Shown in pieces: positions 16,714 through 59,924 of a DNA stretch of 64,000 nucleotides. The first letter of the stretch is position 1; every line of letters begins with the position of its first letter. Both the position numbers and the translations under genes were made by a program. Source of the stretch: Mobula birostris (lineage: Eukaryota); NCBI RefSeq assembly GCF_030028105.1, contig NC_092385.1, forward strand, positions 25,758,774 to 25,822,773, written 5' to 3'. The notes under the pieces were generated by a model. It was not told where the DNA came from. It worked only from the letters and a program-made list of their open reading frames with translations, and ran no database searches.

Positions 16714-17053
16714 TTCTTACAGCGCTGTGTTGTAGGCGATCATGGTCTTTCCATGACCATCACCGTTCTTGGCTAGTTTTTCTACAGAAGTGTTTTGCCA
16801 TTCTGGGCAGTGTTTTCAAGATGGGTGACCCCAGCCATTATCAATACTGTTCAGAGATTGTCTGCCTGGTGTCAGTGGTGGCATAACCAGCATTTGTGAT
16901 ATATATGTACCAGCTGCTCCCATGACTTCACATGACCCTGATAGGAGGACCAAGCAGGTGCTGCACCTTGCCCAAGGGTGACCAGCATGCTAGCGGAGGG
17001 AAGGGGCATCTTACACCTCCTTTGGAAGAGACATATCTCCACCCCGCCACCCC
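16714..17053 (-). mobile_element. Short non-autonomous retroelement (RTE-associated, inferred)
   Basis: Perfect 13-bp TSD ATTCTTACAGTGG (16701-16713, 17054-17066); non-coding; structured GC-rich 5' end beginning GGGGTGG. Confidence 0.75.
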
Positions 17054-23134: not shown

Positions 23135-24495
23135 CTTTATTTATATAGCTCTTTTCATACATTAAGATGCAGGTTCAAAGTGCTTTACATAGATTGTAAA
23201 TATAAATCAAAATAGTCATAAAATACTAGACAAAGTCAAAAATCATTAGACAAACATTATATAGAATAAATTGTAATTGAATATACCAAATTATATAAAT
23301 TTAACCAACATCAACAGGCAATAAGTAGGCCAAATTAAAGAAGTAGGTTTTTGAGAAGTGTTTTGAAATATTTCACAGTACTAGCCTGGGTTATTTCAGT
23401 CGATACAGTATTCCAGATTTTTGGTGGATCAGAGTAAAAGGCTGTATCACCAGTTCTTATACAATCGTTTGTATGCTTGGCTCTACGAACACTAAGCAAA
23501 CCAGTATTCGCAGATCTAAGATTATGATTAGGGACGTAAGAGGATAGACACTCAAATATATAGAGGAAATAGATTATTCAGAGCCTTATATACAATTAAA
23601 AGTATTTTAAAATTGATCCTAAGGGCACAGGCAGCCAGTGAAATGATGCCAAAACAGGTGAAATGTGCTCAGATTTTCATTTTTTGGTTAAGATTCTTGC
23701 TGCTGCATTTTGAACGAGCTGCAGCCAATTTACATCTTTCTTAGCAATCCTGAAAAGAGTGCAATACAGTAGTCTAATCGGCTAAAAATAAAAGTGTGCG
23801 TCAATTTTTCTGCATCTTGAAATGTTATAAGAAATCAAACTCTTGAAATGTTCCTTAAAGAAAGAAAGCAGTCTTAATCAAATGGTTAATATGTGATTTG
23901 ATATTTAGCTCAGAGTCAATAATAATACCTAAATTCTTTACTTCTTCTCTTGATTTTTAATGCCAAACAATCCAGTTTATTTTTAAGATTCACACTTTTT
24001 TATTGCTACCAATAACCAAAATTCCTTTATTTAGTTTAAGGAAATTCAAGCTCATCCATTCTGTAATGCTAGTAAGTCAACAGACCAGAGGGTGTAGGGC
24101 CTCAAGGCCATCTGGTGTAAATACAGTTGTGTGTTGTCTGCATAGATGTGGTAATTCACCTTCTGTTTTGAAATAGTCTGACCTAATGGGAGCATGTCAA
24201 GTGAAGGCAACAACCATAGCTAACAAAGAATTTTCTTCCTGTTATAAAAGATTAAAACAAGTGTGAGGCAGTACTGTACCCGAAAACCTACCCAATGACT
24301 AAGGCAGTTTATGAGAATGCTGTGATCGATGGTATTAAATGCTGCAATCAAATCTCAGAGAACAGGAGTCCAAGAGAACCTGCATCGGTATTAAACCATG
24401 AATCATTAACTACTTTAACCCGTGCAGTTTCTGTACTATGATTTGATCTAAAACCTGACTGGTACTTGTCAAGTAATCACTCAATTGTGGAAAAA
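23135..24495 (-). mobile_element. L2-clade LINE fragment
   Basis: Minus-strand remnants DLIAAFNTIDH, HIYADNTQLY, VKNLGIIIDSEL, LQLVQNAAARILT, LASFHWLPV. Confidence 0.8.
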
Positions 24496-25391
24496 TGACT
24501 TTATCTAAAATTAAAGAATGTGGGGGGAGGGGATGGAGTACAGGCCAGAAGGTGAGTGGAGGAAATGAAGGAATGAAGTAAGAAGATGAGAGGTGATAGG
24601 TGAAAAAGGTAAAGGGCTGGAGAAGAAGGAATCTGATAGAGAGTGGACAATGGGAGGAAGGGAGGGAGGAGAGGCACCAGAGGGAGGATATGGACAGGTA
24701 AGGAGAAGATATAAAAGAGGAGCCAGAGCGGGGAATTGAAGAAGTGAGGAGGGGAGAGGGAAAAATTACCGGAAGTTGCAGAAATCAATGTTCATACCAT
24801 CAAGATGGTGGCTACCCAGACAAAGTTGCTCCTCCAAACGGAGAGTGGCCTCATCGTGGCAGAAGAGGAGGCCATGGACTGACATGTCAGAATGGGAATT
24901 GGAACTAAAATGGTTGTCCACCTTGGGTGGACTTTGGTTGTCCGTCCTGCTTTTTGCGGATGGAGAGGAGATGCTCGACAAAGCAGTCCCCCAATTTATG
25001 TCGGGTCTCACCAATACAGAGGAGGCCATATCGGGAGCACTGGATACAATTGACGACTCCAGTAGATTTACAGGTGAAGTGTTGCCTCACCTGAAAGGAC
25101 TATTCGGGGTCACGAATGGAGGCAAGGGAGGAGGTAAATGAGCAGGTGTAGCACTTCTCCCACTTGCAGAGATGAATGCCAGGAGGGAGATTAGTGGGGA
25201 GGGATGAATGGACAAGTGAATCAGGGAGGCAGTGATCCCTACGGAAAGTAGAGAGTGGTTGGGAGGAAGGAGGTAAATATGTGTTTGGTGGTAGGGTCCC
25301 TTTGAAGATGGCAGAAGTTGCGGAAAATGATGTGTTGGATGCTGAGGCTCATGGTGTGGTAGTTGAGGACAAGCGGAACTTTATCTCTGTT

Positions 25392-26078
25392 GGGGTTTCA
25401 GGGAGGGGTAGCACCTGTGGTGGGGGAACATGTTGCGTCCTTTTCAGGGTGGTTAGTCCACCTTTGGTCCCCACCTGGAACTCAGCTCTCACCTGTGGCT
25501 CCCCGTAGCTGTTTGCGTGCGACAGCGGCCACACCCCGGGCAATGGCTTCGACAAGCCGGCTAAACCAGGTGAAGGTAGCTGACGGGTCTCAAACCCTCA
25601 GTGAGATAGGGAGATGTCTATCCCAGCATGTGAAGACAGACTCTAGCGAATTGAGCAGACGAAACCAATGGAAGATCCAACACTCAAGAAGGCGGTCTCT
25701 GCAAGCATTGTGGAGTGTATAGAGCAGGACAAGACACAGAAGGAGTCCTGGTCATCCACTGCGCCTAGTCCCATCTCCAGCCTTCTCGACTCTTGTCTTG
25801 CCACTGGATCCAGATGGGAATTGGGAAGAGAGAGTGAGGCTGACACAGTGCAACTCTCCCTCTCTTAAATCCAAATCAAGCGCTAATCTCAGCACCATCA
25901 GCCAACTGGTGGCGCAGTGACATCAGAACCAGACTCTGGAGCAAAGGTTCCCGAGTTCAAATCCAGTTGGGCCGCTCCCGGGCACGCTTTCCATCTGTGC
26001 TGGGTTGAGTGTCGAGCTAGCAACTCGACCTCGTAAAAAGTACTAATGGTGTCGAGGTCTTCATTGATTACAATGGAC
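25392..26078 (+). mobile_element. Non-autonomous retroelement (RTE-associated, inferred) with a nested tRNA-derived SINE
   Basis: 16-bp TSD GAACTTTATCTCTGTT (25376-25391) / GAACCTTATCCCTGTT (26079-26094); begins GGGGT; non-coding. Confidence 0.7.
25900..26040 (+). mobile_element. tRNA-derived SINE
   Basis: A box TGGCGCAGTGA, B box GAGTTCAAATCC, short A tail; no complete cloverleaf. Confidence 0.7.
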
Positions 26079-27439
26079 GAACCTTATCCCTGTTAAGGCG
26101 GCCAGAATACAGGCTGAGGGCAGATTCTGGGAAATGTTGGAGATGCAGATGAGGGAATATCAATGGTGGAGGAAGGGAAACCCTGTTCTTTGAAGAAGGA
26201 GGACATTTCTGATATACTGGAAAGGAAAGCTTCATCTTGGGAACAGAAGGAACTGAGAAAAGGGAATGGCATTTTTACAGGAGTCAGAATGGGAAGAGTT
26301 ACAGTCAAGATGACCATGGGAGTTGGTAGGCTTATAAAAGATATTAGTAGACATTTTGGCTCCAGAGATGGAGGCAAAGGGATTGAGGAAGGGGAGAGAG
26401 TTGTCAGAAATGGACCAAGTGGATTTCAGGACAGGGTGGAAGTTGGAGGCCGAGCTGATGAAATTGATGAGCTCAGCATGGGTGTATGAATCAGCATCAA
26501 AGTAGTCCTCAGTGTAGAGCAGAAAGAGATGGGAAGCATTACTAATGAAGGCTTAGAACGTGGACTGTTCCACATAGCGAACCAAAAGTCAAACATAGCA
26601 GAGGCCCATGGCTACCCCTTGAGTTTGGAGGCAGCGGGAAGAGCTGAAAGAGAAATTATTGAGTGATAATAAATATGAATTTGATTCTGAGAATCAGAAT
26701 CAGGTATAATATTGCTCGCACATGTGGTGAAATGTATTGTTTTGTGGCAGATGTGCATTGCATACATAATAAAAAAACTAAATTACAATAAGCAGTATAT
26801 ATTAAAAATAAATTAAGTAGACGGTGCAACAAGAGAGCAACCATTCTGATACAGCACAGAAAGAGGCCCTTCAAACACTTTGATCATGGCTGATTTTTAT
26901 TAAAAATGCAAGAGGCAGCTTCAAAGCTATACCTTGAGTGACCATTTTCAATTTCACCAAAGCCTTTGACTGGATAAACTGGGAAAAAATATGGCATACC
27001 CTCCTCAAATTTGGCTGCTTTCATAGATTGGTCACCATTGCAAAGCTACATATGGGGAAAACAAAAACAAATACAGTATTGGAGTGTTTTCAAAAGATTA
27101 AATATATTTAAAAAGTCGTTCGCGATGCATCTTAGGTTCTATTTCTTTGAATGCATTTTTATTATATTAGTCTAAGTCACATTTTTAACTAATTCCCAAG
27201 CATACAAAGAAATATTTATGAACTACCATGTAATACCTTAACGATGCATTAACTGCCACTCTTAAAGGATTGCATGGCATGAATTCCCTACTTCGATTCC
27301 GATTGCGTTTCTGATTTCTGTTTGTGTATACGGGATAAACGAGGATATCTTTAGGTGTGAACTGATAACTTCCCAGTTACTCCTAAACAGATATGTTACA
27401 TAGTCGTGATCAGGTACTTTTCACTGCATATGTTGATCT

Positions 27440-28254: not shown

Positions 28255-29110
28255 TGTGCGTATACGCAAGGAATTCTGTGGATGCTGGAAATCCAAAGCA
28301 ACACGCACAAAATGCTGGAAGAACTTAGTAGGTCAGGCAGCGTCTATGACAATGAATAAAGAGACGACGTTTCGGGTCGCGACCCTTCCTCAGCACTGGA
28401 AAGGAGGGGGCAAAGCGGAATCAGGAAAAAGGTTGGAGGAGTGGAAGGAGGGAAGCGAGAAGGTGATAGGTGAAGTCAGGTGGGTAGGCTAAAAGAGAAG
28501 AGAAAGAGAATGTGGGGGATGTGATAGACAGATGACGAGAAGAAGAGGCCGGAGTGGGGAATAGAAGAGGGAAAGGGGAGGGATTTTTTTTAAACTGGAA
28601 GGAGAAATCAATATTCATGTCATCAGGTTGTAGGCTACCCAGACAGAATATGAGGTGTTGCTCCTCCATCCTGCCAGTCACCAACGTGTCAGAACGGGAA
28701 TGCGAATGGGAATGAAACTGACTGGCTTTTCTGCTTTTGGTGGATGGAGTGGGGATTCTCAACAAAGTGGTTCCCCAGTTTACGACGGGTCTCACTGATG
28801 TAGAGGAGGCCGCATCGGGAGCACTGGGTACAACAGATGACCCCAACAGATTCTCAGGTGGAGTGGTGCCTCACCTGGAGGGACTGCTTTGGGCCCTGAA
28901 TGGAGATGATGGAGGAGGCGTATGGGCAGGTGTATCACTTTGGCTTCTTGCAGGGATAACTGCTAGGAGGGAGATTAGTGGAGAGGAACGAATGGACAAG
29001 GGAATCTCAGAGGGAGTGTCTCTGCGGTGTGTGGGATGGGGAAGGTAACGATGTATTTGGTGTAGAATCCCTTTGGAGAATATGGAAGTTGCAGAGGGTG
29101 ATGTGTTGAA
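28255..29110 (-). mobile_element. Penelope-like 3' fragment with hammerhead (28362-28397)
   Basis: EEQHLIFCLGSLQPDDMNIDFS; minus strand reads CTGAGGA-AGGGTCGCGACCC-GAAACGTC. Confidence 0.88.
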
Positions 29111-42918: not shown

Positions 42919-43187
42919 AGGGCAGCATTGTAGCGTAGTGGTTAGCACAAAGCTTTACAGTGCAGGTGACGCAAGTTCAATTCCCGCTGCAGTTGTACAG
43001 AGTTTGTACACTTTCCCTGTGACTGCGTGGGTTTCCTCCGGGTGCTCTGGTTTCCTCCCACAGTTTAAAGACCAACTGGCTGGTATGTTAATTGGTCATT
43101 GTAAATTGTCCCATGATTAGGCTGGGATTAAATCGGCCGACTGGCTCGAAGGGCCTATTCCATGCTGTATCTCCATAAGTAAATAAA
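42919..43187 (+). mobile_element. tRNA-derived V-SINE (HE1-like)
   Basis: A box TAGCGTAGTGG, B box GTTCAATTCC, V-domain GTGACTGCGTGGGTTTCCTCCGGGTGCTCTGGTTTCCTCCCACA. Confidence 0.8.
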
Positions 43188-54479: not shown

Positions 54480-56692
54480 CGGCTCTCATCCGTGCCGGGT
54501 CTTTACCATCCCCTCCGACCTTCAACTGTCAGAGGCAGAACGCTCTGTTCTCAGTAAGGGCCTCACGTTTGTCCCCCTTCGCCCACACCTCAGCGAGTTC
54601 CGTGTTCGCCATGATGCGGAACTTTTCTTCTGCCGTCTCCGTCTCCGAGCCTACTTCTTCAGCAAGGACTCTTCCACCCCCCACCGATGACCCCTTCTCC
54701 CGTCTTCAACCCTCCTCTTCTTCATGGACACCCCGCTCTGGTCTTCTGCCTGCTCTGGATCTCTTTATCGCTAATTACCGACGGGACATCAACCGTCTCG
54801 ACTTCACCGCACCTTGTCCCCAATCCAACCTCACTCCTTCGGAACGCTCTGCTCTCCACTCCCTCCGCACTAATCCTAACCTTATTATTAAACCCGCCAA
54901 TAAGGGGGGTGCTGTTGTAGTCTGGCGTACTGATCTCTACCTTGCCGAGGCACAGCGACAACTCGCGGATACCTCCTCTTATTTACCCCTCGATCGTGAC
55001 CCCACTAAGGAGCACCAGGCCATTGTCTCCCACACCATCACCGACTTTATTCGCTCAGGGGATCTCCCATCCACTGCTACCAACCTTATAGTTCCCATAC
55101 CCCGCACTTCCCGTTTCTACCTCCTACCCAAGATCCACAAACCTGCCTGTCCTGGCCGACCTATTGTCTCAGCTTGCTCCTGCCCCACCGAACTCGTTTC
55201 TGCATACCTCGACACGGTTTTATCACCCCTTGTTCAATCCCTTCCGACCTATGTTCGTGACACTTCTCACGCTCTTAAACTTTTTGATGATTTTAAGTTC
55301 CCTGGCCCCCACCGCTTTATTTTCACCATGGATGTCCAGTCCTTATATACTTCCATCCCCCATCAGGAAGGTCTCAAAGCTCTATGCTTCTTTTTGGATT
55401 CCAGACCTAATCAGTTCCCCTCTACCACCACTCTGCTCCGTCTAGCGGAATTAGTCCTTACTCTTAATAATTTCTCCTTTGGCTCCTCCCACTTCCTCCA
55501 AACTAAAGGTGTAGCTATGGGCACCAGTATGGGTCCTAGCTATGCCTGCCTTTTTGTTGGGTTTGTGGAACAATCTATGTTCCATGCCTATTCTGGTATC
55601 TGTCCCCCACTTTTCCTTCGCTACATCGACGGCTGCATTGGCACTGCTTCCTGCACGCATGCAGAACTCGTTGACTTTATTAACTTTGCCTCCAACTTTC
55701 ACCCTGCCCTCAAGTTTACCTGGTCCATTTCCGACACCTCCCTCCCCTTTCTAGATTTTTCTGTCTCTGTCTCTGGAGACAGCTTATCCACTAATGTCTA
55801 CTGTAAGCCTACTGACTCTCACAGCTATCTGGACTATTCCTCTTCTCACCCTGTTTCTTGCAAAAACGCCATCCCCTTCTCGCAATTCCTCCGTCTCCGC
55901 CGCATCTGCTCTCAGGATGAGGCTTTTCATTCTAGGACGAGGGAGATGTCTTCCTTTTCTAAAGAAAGGGGCTTCCCTTCCTCCACTATCAACTCTGCTC
56001 TCAAACGCATCTCCCCCATTTCACGTACATCTGCTCTCACTCCATCCTCCCGCCACCCCACTAGGAATAGGGTTCCCCTGTTCCTCACCTACCACCCCAC
56101 CACCCTCCGGGTCCAACATATTATTCTCCGGAACTTCCGCCACCTTCAGCGGGATCCCACCACTAAGCACATCTTTCCCTCCCCCCCCCCCCCCCCCGCA
56201 TTCCGCAGGGATCGCTCCCTACGCAACTCCCTTGTCCATTCGTCCCCCCCATCGCTCCCCACTGATCTCCCTCCTGGCACTTATCCGTGTAAGCGGAACA
56301 AGTGCTACACATGCCCTTACACTTCCTCCCTTACCACCATTCAGGGCCCCAAGCAGTCCTTCCAGGTGAGGCAACACTTCACCTGTGAGTCGACTGGGGT
56401 GATATGCTGCGTCCGGTGCTCCCGATATGACCTTTTATATATTGGCGAGACCCGACGCAGACTGGGAGACCGCTTTGCTGAACATCTACGCTCTGTCCGC
56501 CAGAGAAAGCAGGATCTCCCAGTGGCCACACATTTTAATTCCACATCCCATTCCCATTCTGACATGTCTATCCACGGCCTCCTCTATTGTAAAGATGAAG
56601 CCACACTCAGGTTGGAGCAACAACACCTTATATTCCGTCTGGGTAGCCTCCAACCTGATGGCATGAACATCGACTTCTCTAACTTCCGCTAA
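54480..56692 (+). pseudogene. Penelope RT-GIY-YIG ORF with one frameshift and active-site substitutions
   Basis: LSKGLTFVP frame joins the 707-aa frame across C6 at 54677-54682; KPANKGGAVVV, FYLLPKIHK, MDVQSLYTSI, GVAMG, RYIDG (canonical YIDD), GVIC...YIGET..R..EH. Confidence 0.9.
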
Positions 56693-59323: not shown

Positions 59324-59924
59324 GCGGCATGGTAACGTAGTGGTTAGTGCATGGCTTTACAGTTTCAGCAACCTGGGTTCAATTTCTGCCACAGGGTTTG
59401 TACGTTCTCCCGGTGACTGCGTGGGTTTCCATCCACGTTAAGACGTAACGGGTTGGTAGGTTAATTGGTCACACGCCTGTAACCGGGCGGTAGGTTAATT
59501 GGTCACGCCTGTAACTGGGTGGTAGATTAACTGGTCACACACCTGTAACTGGATAGTAGGTTAATTTGTCACAGGCCTGTAACTGGGCGGTAGGTTAACT
59601 GGTCACACGCCTGTAACTGGGTGGTAGGTTAATTTGTCACAGGCCTGTAACTGGGCGGTAGGTTAACTGGTCACACGCCTGTAACCGGGCGGTAGGTTAA
59701 CTGGTCACACGCCTGTAACCGGGCGGTAGGTTAACTGGTCACACGCCTGTAACCGGGCGGTAGGTTAACTGGTCACATGCCCGTAACCGGGCGGTAGGTT
59801 AACTGGTCACATGCCCGTAACCGGGCGGTAGGTTAAACTGGTCACATGCCTGTAACCGGGCGGAGTAAGCTTGTTAGGCTGGAAGGACCTGTTATGAAGC
59901 TATGTCTCTAAATTTAAAAAAAAA
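59324..59924 (+). mobile_element. V-SINE containing an internal minisatellite expansion
   Basis: A/B boxes and V-domain start at 59324-59430; A tail at ~59910-59924. Confidence 0.75.
59455..59861 (+). repeat. 34-bp minisatellite, 12 units
   Basis: Consensus GGTAGGTTAACTGGTCACACGCCTGTAACCGGGC, head-to-tail with no spacers. Confidence 0.95.

What the first reader, a model, noticed from the sequence alone, without database searches (positions are those of the whole stretch)
25392..25573. Second HDV-like fold with a hairpin inserted in L3: a possible ribozyme variant
Seen, in HDV order: P2 UCACCUG (25489-95) / CAGGUGA (25567-73); P3 UGGC/GCCA; L3 starting UCCCCGU but extended by a GCUGU/ACAGC hairpin; P1' CACCCC; GG-GCAA; P4 UGGCU/AGCCG; J4/2 GCUAA as in antigenomic HDV (candidate catalytic C25561). 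The element starts GGGGU immediately after a 16-bp TSD, complementary to ACCCC. Two otherwise dissimilar elements in this window both start GGGGU, contain GGGCAA-P4-GCU and have an oversized L3. Strict HDV descriptors would miss such a fold (inference).
Basis: partly seen in the sequence, partly recalled or inferred. Interest (0 to 1): 0.7.

Follow-up and report, generated by a model that had tools for sequence, protein, structure and literature searches.

The report
Delta-type ribozyme with extra core hairpin
The front end of a short jumping element with thousands of copies keeps the fold of a known self-cutting RNA but carries an extra hairpin inside its catalytic loop, so it likely cuts itself free like its known relatives, although this particular copy has lost the nine bases where the family's cut is predicted to fall.

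Summary
The motif is real and at the stated coordinates. It heads a ~565-nt non-autonomous RTE retroposon (1,638 exact core-motif matches) made of the first ~520 and last ~45 nt of a 4.06-kb RTE LINE found in this genome. Across nine aligned sequences from about seven families, P1, P2, P4 and a J1/2 helix (P1.2) show compensatory changes, and U20, C21, G25, P3 and the catalytic C are invariant. All carry a 25-28-nt L3 where published descriptors allow about 7. Correction: the family starts 9 nt further upstream (68 of 89 sampled copies). That outer repeat covaries with P1'; the GGGGU at 25392 is the P1.2 strand, so this copy is 5'-truncated. The hairpin itself has only one-sided support. Its loop is complementary to a conserved downstream GCAUGUG, a possible extra contact. 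No cleavage data exist. It works like drz-Agam-2; the L3 hairpin was not found in the papers I could read, but Ruminski 2011 and Webb 2009/2011 were not available. This scan noted the same motif before in other genomes (four notes). Verdict: new variant of a known kind.

The parts
25376..25391 (+). left target-site duplication (16 bp)
   Evidence: 14 of 16 identical to 26079-26094
25392..26078 (+). whole insertion: non-autonomous bipartite RTE element (family A), lacking the family's first 9 nt, with a SINE-like insert before the tail
   Evidence: 6.9% from the family majority sequence
25392..25398 (+). inner GGGGU-type repeat; in the family the 5' strand of J1/2 helix P1.2, in this copy the only possible (5 bp + mismatch + 1 bp) P1 strand
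25393..25402 (+). P1.2 5' strand
   Evidence: constrained folds; pair counts
25474..25483 (+). P1.2 3' strand
25486..25496 (+). P2 5' strand (extended P2)
   Evidence: 2 pairs with two-sided change, 90.1% of cells paired
25497..25499 (+). P3 5' strand GGC
   Evidence: invariant in 9 of 9 aligned sequences
25500..25527 (+). 28-nt L3: U20 C21 C22 N N G25 U A, then the insert
25508..25526 (+). L3 hairpin (6 bp, 25508-13 with 25521-26; 7-nt loop 25514-20 holding a near-palindromic GCAUGC in the family, GCGUGC here)
   Evidence: one-sided changes only
25528..25530 (+). P3 3' strand GCC
25531..25537 (+). P1 3' strand ACACCCC
   Evidence: covaries with the outer repeat, not the inner one
25538..25539 (+). 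GG of P1.1, pairing with C25502 and C25501
25544..25559 (+). P4 hairpin (6 bp, CGAC loop)
   Evidence: 3 of 6 pairs with two-sided change; z -2.19
25560..25564 (+). J4/2 GCUAA with candidate catalytic C25561
   Evidence: C and the following UAAA invariant in 9 of 9; matches CNRA of the published descriptor
25565..25575 (+). P2 3' strand with one bulged C
25626..25632 (+). conserved downstream GCAUGUG, complementary to the L3 hairpin loop (possible tertiary partner)
25576..25899 (+). rest of the RTE 5' UTR-derived part
   Evidence: 88-90% identical to the 5' end of full-length partners L151 and L155
25900..26043 (+). SINE-like insert with A-box- and B-box-like motifs (label recalled); shared by other copies at the same site
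   Evidence: also in L067, L087, L073, L125, L132, L141, L254; ARAGORN finds no tRNA
26044..26078 (+). RTE 3' tail shared with the autonomous LINE
26079..26094 (+). right target-site duplication

Best explanation
This is the 5' end of a non-autonomous RTE retroposon whose conserved HDV-like fold likely self-cleaves at the element's first base and carries an extra, predicted hairpin inside loop L3. Shown: the element is the two ends of a 4.06-kb RTE LINE; P1, P1.2, P2 and P4 covary; the catalytic positions are invariant; most copies begin at the G of an outer GGGGUGU repeat that covaries with P1'. Inferred: when a copy is read through from a host promoter, the inner repeat zips into a long J1/2 helix (P1.2), which leaves the outer repeat to form P1 and pinches P1 against an extended P2 as in drz-Agam-2; the C75-equivalent then cuts 5' of G1 and frees a unit-length RNA that the LINE's endonuclease/reverse transcriptase copies in trans through the shared 3' tail. 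The insert leaves L3 after G25-U26-A27, outside U20-G25 and P1.1, so the active site would be kept. The window copy lacks the outer repeat and would cut slowly at G25392 or not at all.
For: Partner LINE: L151 carries family positions 2-522 and 521-567 at its two ends, 4 kb apart, around endonuclease (PF03372, E 7.8e-11) and RT (PF00078, E 1.6e-8) frames. Structure on 9 sequences: 89.9% of 276 cells paired, 9 of 32 pairs with two-sided change, 0 of 500 shuffles as high; slid controls 29-50% paired. P1 with the outer repeat: 4 of 7 pairs two-sided, 1 of 500 shuffles reach the score; with the inner repeat 1 of 7, 155 of 500. Inner repeat as P1.2: 92.6% paired, 2 of 6 pairs two-sided, 1 of 500. 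Families A vs C: 0 differences in 52 core positions against 46 of 218 in J1/2 and downstream, p 2.3e-5. 68 of 89 sampled copies carry at least one outer unit, 12 none, 9 not located. The outer repeat is inherited: its G6A variant is linked to position 519, p 3.2e-5. Family A meets every sequence term of the published descriptor (R1-Y, TYYHCG, RN, CNRA) except the lengths of L3 and J1/2. The only Rfam hit at E<=10 is an HDV-type model, weak, E 4.9. RTE 5' ribozymes and bipartite RTEs are in print (PMC5786205, PMC6765202).
Against: No cleavage or RNA-end data; the runs held were contigs only. The L3 hairpin shows no two-sided change, is no more stable than shuffles in isolation (z -0.39), and its A-vs-C conservation is not significant (1 of 20 vs 46 of 218, p 0.14). 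The unconstrained nested fold of copy L027 gave P1 only 0.03 probability (P2 pseudoknot not modelled). 15 of 56 family-A copies carry G6A in the outer repeat, an apparently uncompensated P1 mismatch. G1 pairs with C, not U. A T precedes G1 in 50 of 68 copies, which fits non-templated addition but also a start one base upstream. The nine sequences are related, single decayed copies; L221 and L238 are one family; shuffles ignore relatedness. L3 is part of the catalytic core (PMC4908430), so a 20-nt insert could be harmful.
Confidence: 0.78

Rival explanations
1. The fold descends from an HDV-like ribozyme but the L3 insert has slowed or killed catalysis; it is kept as a 5'-protective or protein-binding module, and the 5' end is set by an internal promoter.
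For: No activity data. A stable HDV-like fold helps R2 templates and non-cleaving versions were tested as 5' modules (PMC11331408 passages). The first 77 nt of L1Tc are both promoter and ribozyme (abstract listing). T at -1 in 50 of 68 copies. An uncompensated P1 variant spread to 15 of 56 copies.
Against: The invariant positions are exactly the catalytic ones (C75-equivalent, following A's, U20, G25, P1.1) in 9 of 9 sequences whose endonucleases are only 35-65% identical to the partner's; element starts coincide with the covarying G1.
Confidence: 0.14
2. The ribozyme is active but uses the inner repeat, and the outer repeat is re-made at each insertion by reverse-transcriptase slippage.
For: The inner repeat can pair with P1' equally well in families A and C; a few copies start at it (window, L117); 3 of 89 copies have two full outer units and two more a partial one, so slippage happens; the window copy's nested fold gives the 5-bp inner P1 probability 0.58-0.69.
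Against: Covariation favours the outer register; the outer repeat carries an inherited variant; constrained folds favour it by 8-15 kcal/mol in 6 of 6 (biased because the outer 9 nt were held unpaired in the other case); the inner repeat covaries with the P1.2 partner.
Confidence: 0.05
3. The insert does not form the drawn hairpin; L3 and the insert fold some other way or the match is a chance resemblance.
For: Hairpin probability only 0.31 in the window copy; z -0.39; no two-sided change.
Against: 0.98 in copy L027; 92.5% of cells paired with two U-G substitutions, and loop-length changes confined to the loop; 0 of 60 shuffled windows match the whole fold.
Confidence: 0.03

Closest known systems
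drz-Agam-2-1, Anopheles HDV-like ribozyme with P1.2 (PMC4908430; first quarter and passages read)
   Same: Structured J1/2 closed by a P1.2 helix, extended P2, 7-bp P1, GCUAA-type J4/2; mosquito ribozymes of this group map to retrotransposons (PMC4870747 supplement).
   Different: Here L3 is 25-28 nt with a hairpin; the P1.2 5' strand is a near-copy of the P1 5' strand; activity untested. The paper names J1/2 as the natural site of extra domains and the passages I read mention none in L3.
HDV-like ribozymes at RTE, R2, Ingi/L1Tc 5' ends (Ruminski 2011, not held; seen only through PMC5786205 and PMC6765202 passages; PMC3774820 passages and section 18)
   Same: Position at the exact 5' end of a non-LTR element; tandem P1 strands and shifted registers are described for R2.
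   Different: R2 passages report high conservation of P1.1, P3 and L3 and length variation in J1/2 and P4/L4. I could not inspect Ruminski's RTE figures, so an L3 insert there is not excluded.
Bipartite non-autonomous RTE elements such as RTESINE1/2, WALLSI3, Bov-A (PMC5786205 passages)
   Same: Only the 5' and 3' ends of an RTE LINE, 7-16-bp TSDs, microsatellite tail; the paper notes that such elements usually keep the 5' end and links this to ribozymes.
   Different: A sub-lineage, including this copy, has a SINE-like unit fused in front of the tail; the ribozyme is described here at base-pair level.
Rfam HDV-F-prausnitzii (RF02682)
   Same: J1.1/4-P4-J4/2 half aligns.
   Different: 13.2 bits against a gathering score of 44, E 4.9; the 5' half is not matched.

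Membership tests
HDV-like ribozyme | Nested double pseudoknot P1, P2, P3, P1.1 with P4 | tested here: met
   Pair counts on 9 sequences; P3 and P1.1 hardly vary, so they are conserved rather than covarying
HDV-like ribozyme | Purine-pyrimidine pair at the cleavage site, 6-7-bp P1 | tested here: met
   G1-C in 5, A1-U in 1, unpaired in 2, absent in the window copy; descriptor term R...Y. Not met by the window copy in the family register
HDV-like ribozyme | L3 5' consensus U-Y-Y-H-C-G (U20, C21, C22, G25) | tested here: met
   Family A UCCCCG fits TYYHCG; U20, C21, G25 invariant in 9 of 9; position 24 is A or G in 4 of 9
HDV-like ribozyme | Short L3 of 7-8 nt (as in published descriptors and HDV/CPEB3) | tested here: not met
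   25-28 nt in all hairpin-type sequences (7 and 8 nt for CPEB3 and HDV). This is the variant feature
HDV-like ribozyme | J4/2 C-N-R-A with catalytic cytosine | tested here: met
   CUAA in 9 of 9
HDV-like ribozyme | Mg2+-dependent self-cleavage 5' of G1, lost on C-to-U | not testable with these tools
   Only contigs available
Bipartite non-autonomous RTE element | Made of the 5' and 3' ends of an autonomous LINE | tested here: met
   L151 and L155
Bipartite non-autonomous RTE element | Partner encodes AP-type endonuclease plus RT | tested here: met
   PF03372 and PF00078
Bipartite non-autonomous RTE element | Partner belongs to the RTE clade by phylogeny with named references | not tested
   Clade name rests on recalled protein motifs and the single-ORF layout; no named reference was in the tree
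Bipartite non-autonomous RTE element | TSDs and simple-repeat tail | tested here: met

The most novel reading that the evidence does not exclude
A widespread RTE lineage uses an HDV-like ribozyme with a new core-proximal domain: a hairpin grafted into L3 whose GCAUGC loop docks on a co-conserved GCAUGUG 54-66 nt past the ribozyme (or on its own copy in a second RNA), forming a third long-range contact that switches or stabilises cleavage as the 5' UTR is transcribed.
Probability: 0.3. Interest if true: 0.75.

Novelty: new variant of a known kind. Interest (0 to 1): 0.5.

Why it matters
L3 is part of the HDV active site and has been fixed at 7-8 nt in search descriptors. A natural, selected hairpin there would show that the fold tolerates a third insertion site, that a whole lineage of RTE ribozymes, with thousands of copies in one animal genome, is invisible to Rfam and RNArobo descriptors, and it offers a direct handle on how RTE RNAs get their 5' ends. 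That bears on RTE-based gene-writing templates and on engineering allosteric HDV ribozymes. The ribozyme-at-RTE-5'-end idea itself is known, which caps the interest.

Tried and rejected
Rfam at gathering thresholds: 0 hits in the window; 0 at E<=1 in L178, L182, L183, L203. Viral contigs: no relative; bacterial/archaeal genomes: one weak 30-residue match, not used. Sequencing runs: only contigs, mostly of uncertain type; they show the families in several other organisms and flank junctions at the outer G but cannot show expression or RNA ends; the one run on record as RNA gave one 151-nt contig, not used. A 37-nt L3 in L183 was rejected: alignment with L182 shows a 7-nt L3 reading. The apparent U-A compensation in this copy's P1.2 was rejected as evidence: the three other G-to-T copies checked keep C, and single-sided changes are common (48 and 92 matches). 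A continuous ORF in the element was not found. The long-range helix between 5' part and tail is present (13 bp with wobbles in L155) but not longer than chance by length alone. The tree is a quick tree of 66 rows (loci with under 140 matched residues, including L238, left out); it separates hairpin-type from short-L3 elements (SH-aLRT 98) but has no outgroup, so gain versus loss is undecided. The host element gave no Pfam hit. Dropped rows: 7 5'-truncated copies and L080 (wrongly taken for a duplicate); L080 is included. L061-L090 were picked by an exact core motif and L001-L030 by likeness to this copy, so the intact-core count (36 of 56 in A, 7 of 30 in C) is biased upward for A. The short-L3 scan crashed, so short-L3 elements among the 80 metagenome loci are a lower bound (3). 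Literature: 10 searches showed no natural L3 hairpin; Ruminski 2011, Webb 2009, Webb and Luptak 2011 and one review were not held, and the Eickbush 2013 and Kojima 2018 supplements were not opened.

Full report
Observation. A descriptor that allows 7-60 nt in L3 finds only this site in the 64-kb window, score 49; 0 of 60 dinucleotide shuffles reach that score and 5 of 60 give any hit. The descriptor was written after seeing the sequence, so this shows only that the full set of helices is not cheap. A slightly different register is more canonical: P3 = GGC/GCC, P1' = ACACCCC, P2 closed by U25496-A25565 with a bulged C, L3 = 25500-25527 (28 nt).

What the element is. In the 4.0-Gb genome the first 509 nt have 4,623 first-look candidates, 40 scored, 92-93% identical; a 20-nt core motif has 1,638 exact matches and 0 control matches. 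Copies are ~565 nt with a simple-repeat tail and TSDs. A search for the tail without the family's upstream sequence gave 102 matches, mostly a coding family. Of 20 stretches extended upstream, two (L151, L155) also carry the family's 5' part; L151 spans 4.06 kb, matches family positions 2-522 and 521-567 at its two ends and holds broken endonuclease and RT frames. The element is therefore an internal-deletion derivative of a LINE; the name RTE rests on recalled protein motifs and was not tested against named references. The window copy belongs to a sub-lineage with a SINE-like unit at 25900-26043 before the tail and sits in an antisense retroelement fragment that looks Penelope-like by recall (no Pfam hit).

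Relatives. A sister family C in the same genome (30 loci, 13% from its majority sequence) and 6 of 80 metagenome loci found with the partner's endonuclease (L176, L178, L181, L203, L221, L238; 35-65% identity in the best segment) carry the same motif upstream of the endonuclease. Three others (L182, L183, L197) carry a homologous-position HDV-like fold with a 7-8-nt L3. A quick tree of 66 rows separates the two types (SH-aLRT 98) but cannot order gain and loss. Contigs from several other organisms hold families A and C.

Structure. On nine aligned sequences, 89.9% of 276 cells pair and 9 of 32 pairs change on both sides: 4 in P1, 2 in P2, 3 in P4; 0 of 500 shuffles reach this, and slid structures pair 29-50%. 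The shuffles ignore relatedness, and L221/L238 are one family. P3, U20, C21, G25, A27 and CUAAA of J4/2 are invariant. Between the A and C majority sequences, 0 of 52 core positions differ against 46 of 218 in J1/2 and downstream (p 2.3e-5); the changes fall at L3 positions 23-24, J1.1/4 and P4, where HDV-like ribozymes vary. The L3 insert is weaker evidence: 92.5% paired, two one-sided U-G changes, no two-sided change; probability 0.98 in L027 but 0.31 in the window copy; z -0.39 alone; A-vs-C conservation p 0.14. It is nonetheless present, 25-28 nt long, in all hairpin-type families, and begins after G25-U26-A27, 3' of the residues that form U20-G25 and P1.1 (PMC1874588 passages; that position 27 is dispensable in HDV is recalled, not from a call).

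The cleavage site is not 25392 for the family. Most copies start with two tandem GGGGUGU units. 68 of 89 sampled copies have at least one outer unit, 12 none (several partly truncated) and 9 could not be located; TSDs end at or within the outer unit in most copies with a clear TSD. P1' covaries with the outer unit (4 of 7 pairs, 1 of 500 shuffles), not the inner (1 of 7, 155 of 500). The inner unit pairs with the strand just before P2 (92.6%, 2 of 6 two-sided, 1 of 500), closing a long J1/2 domain in constrained folds that favour the outer register by 8-15 kcal/mol in 6 of 6 (biased by holding the outer 9 nt unpaired in the alternative). A G6A variant of the outer unit is linked to a variant 513 nt away (p 3.2e-5), so the outer unit travels in the RNA. 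Against: that variant, in 15 of 56 copies, leaves a P1 mismatch, and the unconstrained nested fold of L027 does not form P1 (0.03). The window copy has only the inner unit; it can form a 5-bp P1 (0.58-0.69) at the cost of P1.2. T precedes G1 in 50 of 68 copies, most simply a non-templated base or target microhomology (inference). A few copies have an extra outer unit, like the 5' duplications discussed for R2 (PMC3774820 section 18).

Mechanism. Read-through transcription, folding of P1.2 and extended P2, cleavage 5' of the outer G1 by the C75-equivalent, and trans-mobilisation by the LINE protein. The pinch role of P1.2 plus extended P2 is taken from drz-Agam-2-1 (PMC4908430). All catalytic steps are inferred. 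The rivals are a non-cleaving fold with an internal promoter (0.14), use of the inner register (0.05) and a differently folded insert (0.03).

A further lead. The hairpin loop holds GCAUG in 7 of 9 aligned sequences, and a GCAUGUG-type motif is conserved 54-66 nt past J4/2. The loop's best duplex in the next 110 nt falls on that motif in 6 of the 9 sequences with a parsed loop (6-8 bp; a tenth, C_L096, failed to parse); the exceptions are C_L114, L176 and L181. Because the loop is near-palindromic it could equally pair with itself in a dimer. There is no clean covariation, so this is a hypothesis.

Comparison with print. HDV-like ribozymes at RTE 5' ends and bipartite RTEs are known (PMC6765202, PMC5786205 passages). 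The published RNArobo descriptor fixes L3 at about 7 nt and J1/2 at up to 51 nt (PMC4870747 supplement part 3); family A meets its other terms, so it would be missed, as it is by Rfam. Ten literature searches showed no natural L3 hairpin, but the primary papers on RTE ribozymes were not held. Papers seen as passages only: PMC3774820 (plus section 18), PMC6765202, PMC5786205, PMC7245038, bioRxiv 2022.09.22.508989, PMC13708176, PMC9901934, PMC4035085, PMC4870747 (plus one supplement part), PMC11331408, PMC1874588, PMC10879173; PMC4908430 passages and first quarter. Four earlier notes of this scan describe the same motif in other genomes and two reach the same upstream cut site; they are unchecked AI notes, read after my own tests, and are not counted as evidence.

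Verdict. Real feature; works like a drz-Agam-2-type HDV-like ribozyme of an RTE element; fails the short-L3 feature and is untested for catalysis, so it is filed as a new variant of a known kind. Interest 0.5.

Noticed in passing
window 16714-17053 (minus); L031-L060: Second short retroelement family (7,333 first-look candidates) with a 13-bp TSD, a tandem GGG(G)UGG start and GGGCAA-P4-GCUUA; its L3 region lacks G at position 25 and has extra U before the GG, and it failed my descriptor. Possibly a more degenerate or differently wired HDV-like fold.
   Followed up: partly
Length alone is not beyond chance.
   Followed up: partly
window 25900-26043; L067, L073, L087, L125, L132, L141, L254: A SINE-like unit fused at the same junction in several copies, giving a ribozyme-headed dimeric element that has itself spread.
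   Followed up: partly
G000:C17:42.6-84.6 Mb: Fourteen near-identical copies sharing private variants lie on one contig, suggesting segmental amplification rather than retrotransposition.
   Followed up: no
L182, L183, L197: Short-L3 HDV-like folds with a long J1/2 at the 5' ends of related LINEs in metagenome contigs; L182 and L183 have no Rfam hit at E<=1.
   Followed up: partly
L067: Family A copy with its 5' 50 nt inverted, as in twin priming.
   Followed up: no
window 59436-59904: 34-bp tandem repeat array, with a related 25-nt match at 43074.
   Followed up: no
window 24400-25391 and 26095-26600 (minus): Host retroelement fragment interrupted by the insertion, with related copies near 460-1070, 28600-29020 and 55460-56690; Penelope-like by recalled motifs, no Pfam hit.
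   Followed up: partly
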